Source: an uncultured archaeon
GTDB taxonomy: Archaea > Asgardarchaeota > Lokiarchaeia > Sigyniarchaeales > SOKP01
Direction: 5' to 3'
NCBI GenBank assembly: GCA_964525635.1
Contig: CAZGJX010000028.1
Span: forward strand, 1 to 39,558
Length of the DNA stretch: 39,558 bases
The notes under the pieces: generated by a model
Database searches by the model: none
The model's input: only the letters and a program-made list of their open reading frames with translations
Told to the model about the DNA's origin: nothing
Translations under genes and position numbers: made by a program
Part shown: in pieces, positions 7,356-10,998 of the stretch
Position numbering within the stretch: the first letter of the stretch is position 1
Layout: every line of letters starts with the position of its first letter

Positions 7356-7604
7356 TTGAATTGGGTTAAATTAGATTTATTTCATTTAGGTATGTCTAAT
7401 AAGAAACATCAAATCTTTAGAGCTACTAAATGGAATAGGAATTTCGAAAAAATATTAAAAAAACCAATTTACAATGAAGAATATAAAAATATTGGCTTTG
7501 TTAAAGATATTTTTGGTCCAATGAAGATGCCTTTTATTTCAATTAAAACAAAACCTAATGAAGAAATAGACTCAAATACCAATTTTTACGTAAAATTTAA
7601 ATGA
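7356..7604 (+). CDS. gar1: H/ACA ribonucleoprotein subunit Gar1
   Basis: IGFVKDIFGPMKMPFISIK motif, ~80 aa. Lies directly upstream of tfb, a common archaeal arrangement. Confidence 0.85.
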   Translation: MNWVKLDLFHLGMSNKKHQIFRATKWNRNFEKILKKPIYNEEYKNIGFVKDIFGPMKMPFISIKTKPNEEIDSNTNFYVKFK

Positions 7605-9119: not shown

Positions 9120-9346
9120 AATCCAAAATAATAAACTTGAGACTATATGTTTTTATTTTCGTTATATTCGTAGGAATAATTATTCCATTCCTTAATTATT
9201 TAAGTACTAAATATTATTTGTATGATAATAGGTTTAGGGTTAAAAAAATTAAATCATATAAGGTAGTTTGGATTTTTTTATATTAAACTAAAAAAAAAAC
9301 AAAACAAAGAATTAGAAAAAAAAAAATATTAGGTTGAAAATAAATT

Positions 9347-9811: not shown

Positions 9812-9984
9812 ACTTTGTTTATATCTTTTTTAAAATAAAATTAATTAGTGATCTTTATTTTTTTGGAGAAATATTAGCGTAAATTCAATTTATGGTAATT
9901 TTTAAATAAATAATATGAAATAAAGATCATATTTCTTTAAAATAATTTATATTTAAAAAGAAAATAATAATAAGATACATAGAC

Positions 9985-10257
9985 TGTTGCCTAAAACACT
10001 AACACAAAATTCTCATTCTAAGGGGATACCTTAAAATCAAATTTGTTCTCTCGTGCTAGGCGTTAACTTCTATGCTTTAAGGGACATAATCTTTCTGCTG
10101 TCTGGGTACTGCCCTAATCTCATCGTACGGAACCATCCTTTTACTTGACTAAGAGCCCATTTGCCAGCAGTGTAAGTTATCGATTATAAAAACTCCAGAT
10201 GTCTGCGTTTCTTTGCACATATAATCATTTGATATCATATATGTCCTCGATAACGCA
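9985..10257 (-). ncRNA. Putative multi-hairpin box H/ACA pseudouridylation guide RNA (or cluster of three)
   Basis: H1 10257-10200: UGCGUU/AACGCA lower stem, pocket AUCGAGG / GCAAAG(A), ACAUAUA/UAUAUGU upper stem, UGA-UAUCAAA-UGA K-loop, ACA 14 nt after the pocket top. H2 10170-10092: CUGCUG/CAGCAG stem followed by AAA. H3 10061-9985: GCCUAG/UUAGGC stem, UGA...AUGAG K-turn-like motif, ACA. Locally GC-richer than flanks, no ORF. Confidence 0.8.
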
Positions 10258-10302
10258 TATATTCCATCATTATTTTCCCAATTTAATTATATAATTGAGA
10301 GA

Positions 10303-10316
10303 TTATAAATGTTTTT
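10303..10316 (-). promoter_or_regulatory. Candidate BRE-TATA promoter for the ncRNA
   Basis: Minus-strand AAAAAC-A-TTTATAA, about 45 nt upstream of hairpin 1. The AT-rich background lowers specificity. Confidence 0.45.
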
Positions 10317-10413: not shown

Positions 10414-10998
10414 TTACATATAATAATATAGTGTATTCCAAATACCTGATGTAAAAACAAACATAATTATGAAAAATACAATACCTGCGATATTAGCAAT
10501 AATTCCAAATATGCTAAGTACACTTCCTATTTTCTCAGGTGTATTTTGAGCTTCTGTTAATCTTGCTCTGTTGCTATTTAATCTACTTGAAATACCAAAA
10601 ATTAGTCCAACAATATAAAAGATAATAATAGGCAATGTTTGAGGTATAAAAAAGCGACTTGTATTATAATTAATAATTCTTATGAAAAATCCAAAAAAAC
10701 CAAGAATTAATCCAGCAGCAGCAAGACCAAGGGATACTATTGAAAATGCTAAACATTTCTTAGAATGGGATCCAGTCCCCATATTTGTCATAATTGGTTT
10801 TTGGGAAGGAATCGCAGAATTGAGATAGCTATTCGAGGGTTGTTTATTAACTATATAAGGATTTTGATAATTAATATTAGTTTTTTGAGCTTGACCTTGA
10901 AAATCATTTTGAATTTTGCTTCCACATAATGGACAAAATTTTGTATTAATATCTTCTATATTTTCACCACAATTTGAGCAAAACATTGTTATATTCAT
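10414..10998 (-). CDS. Zinc-ribbon domain membrane protein
   Basis: FCSNCG..FCPLCG, Q/N/P-rich linker, three hydrophobic helices. Confidence 0.8.
   Translation of the reverse strand: MNITMFCSNCGENIEDINTKFCPLCGSKIQNDFQGQAQKTNINYQNPYIVNKQPSNSYLNSAIPSQKPIMTNMGTGSHSKKCLAFSIVSLGLAAAGLILGFFGFFIRIINYNTSRFFIPQTLPIIIFYIVGLIFGISSRLNSNRARLTEAQNTPEKIGSVLSIFGIIANIAGIVFFIIMFVFTSGIWNTLYYYM

What the first reader, a model, noticed from the sequence alone, without database searches (positions are those of the whole stretch)
9985..10257. Unannotated ~270-nt three-hairpin ncRNA with its own candidate promoter, 2.4 kb downstream of gar1
Seen: a GC-enriched non-coding island with three successive hairpins, each followed by an ANA triplet (ACA 10202-10200, AAA 10094-10092, ACA 9987-9985), an upstream TTTATAA and a downstream T-rich tract. 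Inference: either one multi-guide H/ACA RNA or a polycistronic guide cluster processed into units. Asgard H/ACA RNAs are little described as far as I know, and they bear on the shift from K-turn/L7Ae archaeal guides to K-turn-less two-hairpin eukaryotic snoRNAs.
Basis: partly seen in the sequence, partly recalled or inferred. Interest (0 to 1): 0.75.

Follow-up and report, generated by a model that had tools for sequence, protein, structure and literature searches.

The report
Three-arm H/ACA guide RNA, Asgard archaea
This gap holds a real, unannotated RNA gene of about 303 bases that most likely tells the pseudouridine-making enzyme which uridines in the catalytic core of the large ribosomal RNA to convert; it is the Asgard version of a guide RNA long known from Pyrococcus and Archaeoglobus, with extra clamping helices and one arm that seems to serve two targets.

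Summary
The RNA is real, but about 30 nt longer than reported: minus strand, about 10279-9977, TATA box at 10309-10303. It is single-copy, conserved in 35 of 36 family genomes and found across the phylum. Its helices covary, and metatranscriptome contigs cover it but not the neighbouring genes. It is one archaeal H/ACA guide with three units, related to HgcG/Pab40/Afu-4; two distant homologs hit Rfam RF00064 (E 3e-8 and 7e-6, below the cut-off). Predicted 23S targets (E. coli numbering): unit 1 U2496, unit 2 U2586, unit 3 U1917 (possibly U1915), each 14 nt from its ANA box. It is not K-turn-less: it has three apical K-turn or K-loop motifs and a fourth, basal K-turn. Unlike the HgcG consensus, each ANA box sits inside an outer helix, and units 1 and 2 share a three-way junction. 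Unit 2 also fits A-loop U2554 (yeast Psi2923), and three genomes in two lineages kept only that register. No pseudouridine was measured. This scan had already found the family, and the basal K-turn, on other Asgard DNA. I found no paper on Asgard H/ACA RNAs.

The parts
10303..10309 (-). TATA box of the RNA's own archaeal promoter, with an A-rich stretch (BRE-like) just upstream; implies a start near 10280
   Evidence: TTTWWWW conserved at the same distance from the 5' GGGA in about 29 of 30 relatives
9977..10279 (-). Three-unit H/ACA guide RNA, about 303 nt
   Evidence: Conservation and covariation; RNA contigs at 9991-10265 and a 317-nt homolog contig
10081..10279 (-). 5' domain: three-way junction closed by GGGA (10279-10276) and UCCC (10084-10081), carrying units 1 and 2
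   Evidence: Helix 86% paired; also in the single-sequence fold
10190..10275 (-). Basal K-turn enclosing unit 1 and its ACA box: C-stem 10275-10272 with 10193-10190, 3-nt bulge plus GA 10271-10267, partner GA 10195-10194
   Evidence: C-stem 96% paired with all 4 pairs showing two-sided changes, NC stem 88%; pattern passes in 56 of 73 homologs
10200..10257 (-). Unit 1: K-loop hairpin, pocket 10251-10245 and 10216-10213, ACA 10202-10200; predicted target 23S U2496 (yeast Psi2865, P. abyssi Psi2588)
   Evidence: 12-bp duplex, best of all U's in 16S plus 23S, null P = 0.01, distance 14; target invariant in relatives
10086..10187 (-). Unit 2 with outer clamp (10187-10182 with 10091-10086), K-turn, AAA box 10094-10092; guide strands 10161-10155, 10111-10108 and 10107-10102; predicted targets U2586 (14 nt) and A-loop U2554 (17 nt)
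   Evidence: Clamp 97% paired; duplexes; gains and losses in relatives
9977..10075 (-). Unit 3 with outer clamp (10075-10070 with 9982-9977), irregular K-turn, pocket 10052-10048 and 10003-9998, ACA 9987-9985; predicted target helix-69 U1917 (14 nt), possibly U1915 (16 nt)
   Evidence: Own-genome helix 69; duplex; clamp 90% paired where present and rebuilt from unrelated sequence in other families
9955..9975 (-). T-rich tract, likely terminator
   Evidence: Sequence; flank not conserved in sequence
7356..7604 (+). gar1, an H/ACA core protein gene; neighbour on the opposite strand, not part of the transcript
   Evidence: Pfam Gar1 E 1.5e-8

Best explanation
A stand-alone gene makes one RNA of about 303 nt. 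L7Ae binds its K-turns, and Cbf5-Nop10-Gar1 bind each ANA box and lower stem. Each of the three pockets pairs with pre-23S rRNA and presents a uridine for conversion to pseudouridine: unit 1 U2496, unit 2 U2586, unit 3 U1917 (perhaps also U1915). It is the Asgard member of the HgcG/Pab40/Pf7/Afu-4 lineage. In this order, unit 2 probably has a second register aimed at A-loop U2554. The outer clamps and basal K-turn most likely hold the RNA in one compact fold with protected ends and give L7Ae a fourth site; they do not guide. Shown here: sequence, covarying helices, complementarity, spacing, homology by transitive model hit, presence in RNA libraries, and core protein genes in the genome. Inferred: protein binding, actual pseudouridine formation, the second target, and the role of the clamps.
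For: Structure: RNAalifold finds the three hairpins and two of the clamps unaided, and 44 of 72 named pairs show two-sided changes. [quoted passage not shown] Each predicted site is the top-ranked U in family rRNA. Homology: homologs found with models built from this RNA hit RF00064 HgcG at E 3.2e-8 and 6.8e-6. The three target regions come in the same order as Pab40/Pf7 motifs 1-3 (PMC2377435) and Haloferax sR-h45 (PMC7075261, PMC2584109). Unit 2: ACCC + 9 nt + ANA recurs across the phylum. In this family 19 of 20 genomes with U2586 keep ACCCAG and 0 of 3 with C2586 do (Fisher p 0.002, overstated by kinship). All 39 scored family members keep AYGGGC and CAG. G011, G021 and G042 lost ACCC and moved CAG to 14-16 nt from the box. 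Expression: one 275-nt contig spans all three units while flanking genes have essentially no cover. Machinery: Cbf5 motifs, L7Ae, Nop10 and Gar1 are in the genome.
Against: No pseudouridine or protein binding was measured. The window's own RNA does not hit HgcG even at E 10, and the two homologs that do score 33-41 bits against a cut-off of 77. Unit 3's duplex alone is not significant (P about 0.2), and unit 2's U2586 duplex is borderline (P 0.06) and leaves five target bases unpaired. The U2554 register lies 17 nt from the box, a distance Muller et al. found non-functional, although Haloferax tolerates 17-18. In G044, G050 and G055 the 5' guide strand mismatches the A-loop with no compensating rRNA change. 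The AACCCUU form seen in one C2586 genome is normal in lineages with U2586, so only two of the three covariation cases are clear. The own assembly lacks the 2496 and 2554 region; relatives, including one of the same genus, were used. The RNA evidence is contigs only, with no strand or ends.
Confidence: 0.9

Rival explanations
1. Unit 2 guides only U2586. The A-loop match is a by-product of intramolecular pairing and of the likeness between the two rRNA stretches.
For: The distance of 17 breaks the rule in PMC2377435. GGGC and part of the 3' strand can pair within the RNA. The match is weakened in G044, G050 and G055.
Against: CAG is invariant in 39 of 39 family members and sits as an insertion seen only in this order. 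Three genomes in two lineages kept only this register, at canonical spacing. Afu4.2 is listed as guiding a detected pseudouridine at A. fulgidus 2601, which maps to the same loop within one base (PMC4652768; PMC2377435). Null P = 0.018.
Confidence: 0.35
2. A polycistronic precursor is cut into separate single-hairpin guides, with the clamps acting as processing stems.
For: An A-rich single-stranded linker (10080-10076) separates the 5' domain from unit 3. Some distant homologs lack a unit. P. abyssi Pab21 occurs in long and short forms.
Against: Units 1 and 2 share one junction. Single RNA contigs of 275 and 317 nt span the whole element. The Haloferax relative accumulates at full length.
Confidence: 0.1
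3. A composite C/D-H/ACA RNA, in which the basal K-turn is a working box C/D that recruits Nop5 and fibrillarin to methylate a target.
For: The 5' strand resembles box C, and the 3' strand often reads CUGA. Pab21 is such a composite.
Against: No free antisense stretch precedes the D-like box; that place holds the ACA box and the clamp strand. The pair next to the G:A pairs varies freely instead of being U.U. There is no second C'/D' pair.
Confidence: 0.07
4. Another RNA class (RNase P, SRP, riboswitch, 3' UTR element) or chance structure.
For: No direct Rfam hit for the window.
Against: Rfam shows no other class. The element has its own promoter, faces the roadblock gene, covaries, fits rRNA at known sites and links to HgcG.
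Confidence: 0.02

Closest known systems
HgcG / Pab40 / Pf7 / Pho40 / Afu-4 three-motif H/ACA sRNA (Rfam RF00064; PMC2377435)
   Same: Three H/ACA motifs in one RNA with apical K-turns or K-loop. Motif 1 targets the 2496 equivalent (P. abyssi 2588; offset inferred from spacing), motif 2 the 2586 equivalent, motif 3 helix 69. Distant Asgard homologs hit the model.
   Different: In the HgcG consensus the motifs follow each other directly after each ACA, and Pab40 starts at motif 1. There are no outer clamps, no basal K-turn and no three-way junction. Pab40 motif 3 makes the 1915 equivalent only, while this RNA is spaced for 1917. The window's own sequence is too diverged to hit the model.
Haloferax volcanii sR-h45 (PMC7075261)
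   Same: Homolog of units 2 and 3; guides Psi2605 (E. coli 2586) and Psi1940/1942 (1915/1917); tolerates G:A pairs outside a strict K-turn, like unit 3 here.
   Different: It lacks unit 1 and has a dispensable 56-nt linker; no basal K-turn is described.
Yeast snR46 (Psi2865), snR10 (Psi2923), snR191 (Psi2258/2260) (PMC5699541)
   Same: The same rRNA positions as units 1, 2 (A-loop register) and 3, using the 369 and 343 offsets given in PMC11077068.
   Different: Separate two-hairpin snoRNAs without K-turns that bind Nhp2. No sequence homology was tested or is claimed.
Pab21/snoR9 composite H/ACA-C/D RNA (PMC2377435, PMC4652768)
   Same: A C/D-like K-turn and an H/ACA motif in one transcript.
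   Different: There the C/D guide follows the H/ACA motif in series; here the K-turn encloses the hairpin and has no guide stretch.

Membership tests
Archaeal box H/ACA guide RNA | Hairpin with lower stem, internal pocket and upper stem | tested here: met
   Covarying stems in all three units
Archaeal box H/ACA guide RNA | ANA box 3' of each hairpin | tested here: met
   ACA, AAA, ACA; both A's invariant or nearly so in 28 sequences
Archaeal box H/ACA guide RNA | K-turn or K-loop in the upper stem, 9-10 nt from the pocket | tested here: met
   Unit 1 K-loop at 10 nt, unit 2 K-turn at 9-10 nt for the A-loop register, unit 3 irregular K-turn at 10 nt; read from sequence, binding not tested
Archaeal box H/ACA guide RNA | Bipartite complementarity around an rRNA uridine 14-16 nt from ANA | tested here: met
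   2496, 2586 and 1917 at 14 nt, each top-ranked; P 0.01, 0.06, 0.2
Archaeal box H/ACA guide RNA | Binds Cbf5/L7Ae/Nop10/Gar1 and directs pseudouridine formation | not testable with these tools
   The four genes are present; activity not measured
Archaeal box H/ACA guide RNA | Expressed as a stable small RNA from that strand | tested here: inconclusive
   RNA-library contigs confined to the element; no strand or ends
HgcG/Pab40 (RF00064) | Reaches the Rfam gathering score (77 bits) | tested here: not met
   No hit for the window; best homolog 40.7 bits. Filed as a diverged relative, not an Rfam member.
HgcG/Pab40 (RF00064) | Three motifs with targets in helix 89, the 2586 region and helix 69, in that order | tested here: met
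HgcG/Pab40 (RF00064) | Detectable homology | tested here: met
   Transitive: E 3.2e-8 and 6.8e-6 for homologs found by models R1 and R2
Eukaryote-type H/ACA snoRNA | Two hairpins without K-turns and an ANANNA hinge | tested here: not met
   Three units and four K-turn or K-loop motifs
Box C/D guide RNA | Antisense element upstream of a D or D' box, with U.U next to the G:A pairs | tested here: not met
   That place holds the ACA box and clamp; the pair varies
RNase P RNA / SRP RNA | Match to the Rfam model | tested here: not met

The most novel reading that the evidence does not exclude
Asgard archaea rebuilt the ancient HgcG guide into a pre-organised two-arm particle. The basal K-turn and junction fix units 1 and 2 so that their Cbf5 complexes touch and depend on each other, as in the paired hairpins of eukaryotic snoRNPs. 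In Loki-type lineages unit 2 switches between two registers, and in some it has moved fully to the A-loop site that yeast modifies with snR10. That would be guide retargeting caught in progress at a site shared with eukaryotes.
Probability: 0.15. Interest if true: 0.75.

Novelty: new variant of a known kind. Interest (0 to 1): 0.42.

Why it matters
It gives concrete, testable pseudouridine sites in the peptidyl-transferase centre and helix 69 of Asgard ribosomes; three of them (2496, 2554, 1917) are also modified in yeast. It shows that the closest prokaryotic relatives of eukaryotes kept, and even added, K-turns, so K-turn loss is not seen in this guide. The two registers of unit 2 bear on an old disagreement over the target of Afu-4 motif 2 (2601 against 2632): both may be real. 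ACA boxes enclosed in outer helices are not part of the textbook picture and would be missed by standard search descriptors. Homologs lie in closed single-contig genomes of 4.4 and 6.0 Mb, sizes that from memory match the cultivated Loki strains, so the tests may be feasible. The basic function is ordinary, and this scan has reported the family several times.

Tried and rejected
Rfam scans of the window at gathering score and at E 10 gave only chance matches. The HgcG model found nothing in the own genome. The sigma-70 promoter and terminator scan is not suited to archaea and gave chance levels. These missed G044 and G050, which a DNA search with the G055 homolog then found. A loose GAGA..GTTAGTG pattern gave only background. 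An early idea that unit 2 pairs with helix 89 was dropped: the target is variable there and offers no U. The likeness of unit 3's 5' strand to the sarcin-ricin loop is same-sense and was dropped. A per-sequence shuffle test of the unit 3 clamp passed in only 22 of 59 cases because short AT-rich helices have little power; the clamp rests on covariation instead. Unit 2's lower stem and apical stem were given in the wrong register (39% and 37% paired); RNAalifold's register for the lower stem covaries. The test for A-loop covariation in G044, G050 and G055 was negative. Read cover at 9290-9326 is a poly-A artefact. Tang 2002 and Rozhdestvensky 2003 were not held, so Afu-4 facts are second-hand. 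Paper searches found no description of Asgard H/ACA RNAs, but the library is incomplete.

Full report
Observation. The three hairpins, the three ANA triplets, the TATA-like box and the T-rich tract are all present on the minus strand at the stated places. The island is GC-rich against its flanks. It folds far better than shuffles on the minus strand (z -3.9 and -4.2) and not on the plus strand (z -1.4). Rfam has no match for it. The genome is 26.8% GC, has a selenocysteine tRNA and a roadblock-type gene beside the RNA; I infer a Loki-type Asgard archaeon. gar1 and tfb lie 2.4 kb away on the other strand. This neighbourhood holds within the family and was not seen in the short flanks fetched from other families.

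Extent and conservation. The element is single-copy and matched in 35 of 36 family genomes. The TATA box is conserved 24-30 nt upstream of 10279, which fits a start near 10280 by the usual archaeal spacing (established knowledge). In metatranscriptomes, one 275-nt contig covers 9991-10265 with one mismatch, and a 317-nt contig of a relative extrapolates to about 10291-9975. The neighbouring genes have almost no cover. This is a hint of one stable RNA; contigs cannot show strand or ends.

Structure. RNAalifold on 28 sequences recovers the three hairpins and two extra helices. For my full structure, 85% of cells pair and 44 of 72 pairs show two-sided changes, beating all shuffles and slid controls. 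Each unit has tandem G:A pairs in its upper stem: a K-loop in unit 1, a K-turn in unit 2, and an irregular one in unit 3. Each ANA box is followed by a strand that pairs back upstream of its hairpin. The clamp of unit 1 contains a fourth K-turn, whose C-stem is 96% paired with compensation at all four pairs. A GGGA/UCCC helix closes units 1 and 2 into a three-way junction. The clamp of unit 3 has been lost in about nine family members.

Targets. E. coli numbering was checked on a fetched 23S gene. The own genome holds helix 69 and the 2586 region; the 2496 and 2554 region came from relatives, where it is nearly invariant. Unit 1 pairs 8 + 4 bases around U2496 (null P 0.01). Unit 3 pairs 5 + 4 around U1917 (P 0.2), with a second register for U1915 at 16 nt. 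Unit 2 pairs 6 + 4 around U2586 (P 0.06) and 7 + 4 around A-loop U2554 (P 0.018, but 17 nt from the box). Each is the best site in 16S plus 23S for its pocket, and 2496, 2586 and 1917 lie 14 nt from the box.

Unit 2 has two registers. ACCC + 9 nt + ANA is kept across the phylum. In this family it is degraded in the genomes whose rRNA has C2586: clearly in two, ambiguously in one. AYGGGC and CAG are kept in all 39 scored family members, and the CAG insertion appears only in this order. G011 and G021 (one genus) and G042 (another family) lost ACCC and now carry CAG at 14-16 nt from the box. Against this, G044, G050 and G055 have a mismatched 5' strand and an unchanged A-loop. I put the second target in this genome at about 60%. 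The literature has the same split for Afu-4 motif 2: 2601 was detected and is judged productive in PMC4652768, while PMC2377435 reassigns the motif to 2632, 31 nt further on. That spacing points to 2555, one base from my site; 2555 is A in 20 of 21 family genomes, so it cannot be the target here.

Distribution and homology. Partial models found unit 1 or unit 3 in many families of the phylum, often together at the right spacing. The basal K-turn pattern passes in 56 of 73 homologs; it looks degenerate in family f12 and absent in f9. Two distant homologs hit Rfam HgcG at E 3.2e-8 and 6.8e-6, below its cut-off. The printed consensus shows motifs joined directly, without clamps or a basal K-turn. 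Pab40/Pf7/Afu-4 target the same three regions in the same order. The mapping of P. abyssi 2588 to E. coli 2496 is my inference from the 39 and 15 nt spacings shared with yeast 2826/2865/2880. Some homologs are spaced for 1915, like Pab40, and most, including this one, for 1917.

Mechanism. Shown: fold, spacing, complementarity, homology, presence in RNA libraries, and genes for Cbf5, L7Ae, Nop10 and Gar1. Inferred from established H/ACA biology: L7Ae on the K-turns, Cbf5 on each ANA box and lower stem, and conversion of the presented U. Inferred with less support: the clamps and the basal K-turn protect the ends and organise the particle. The loss of the unit 3 clamp in several relatives suggests it is not needed for guiding.

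Verdict. A real RNA and a structural variant of a known archaeal guide family. My reading was recorded before I looked at earlier notes. Those notes show the scan has reported this family on at least six other stretches, one with the basal K-turn; they are not independent evidence. What this report adds is the case for two registers in unit 2. Interest 0.42.

Noticed in passing
23S genes of the family, L062-L084: Many carry small insertions that look like archaeal introns: about 30-38 nt in helix 91 or helix 89 and 120-210 nt in helix 93. They lie close to the guide targets, so splicing may need to come before guiding.
   Followed up: no
L148 (G080:C17:42371-42469): A second, isolated copy of unit 3 about 500 nt downstream of the full RNA, with an altered 5' guide strand and no clamp; a partial duplication.
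   Followed up: no
L009, L012, L013, L088, 3' strand of unit 3: One genus has a 10-nt insertion between the guide strand and the lower stem, which must loop out to keep the 14-nt spacing.
   Followed up: no
L130 (G181), L141 (G151), L140 (G137): Homologs that lack units: G181 has units 1 and 3 only, G151 seems to lack unit 1, G137 shows unit 3 only.
   Followed up: partly
G010 (100% complete, same family): No match by DNA search or either model, although three genomes of the same genus have the RNA; a loss or an assembly gap.
   Followed up: partly
window 10414-10998: The zinc-ribbon membrane protein gene just upstream of the RNA's promoter was found in none of the relatives' loci, so it may be a recent insertion.
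   Followed up: partly
L164, L165, L166 (G055, G050, G048): The box after unit 3 reads UCA instead of ANA at the 14-nt position, and the guide strand fits U1915 only.
   Followed up: partly
G000 contigs C54, C146 and C50: Twenty tRNA genes in two arrays on C54, five Ser/Leu tRNAs on C146, and a selenocysteine tRNA on C50; no 16S gene is assembled.
   Followed up: no
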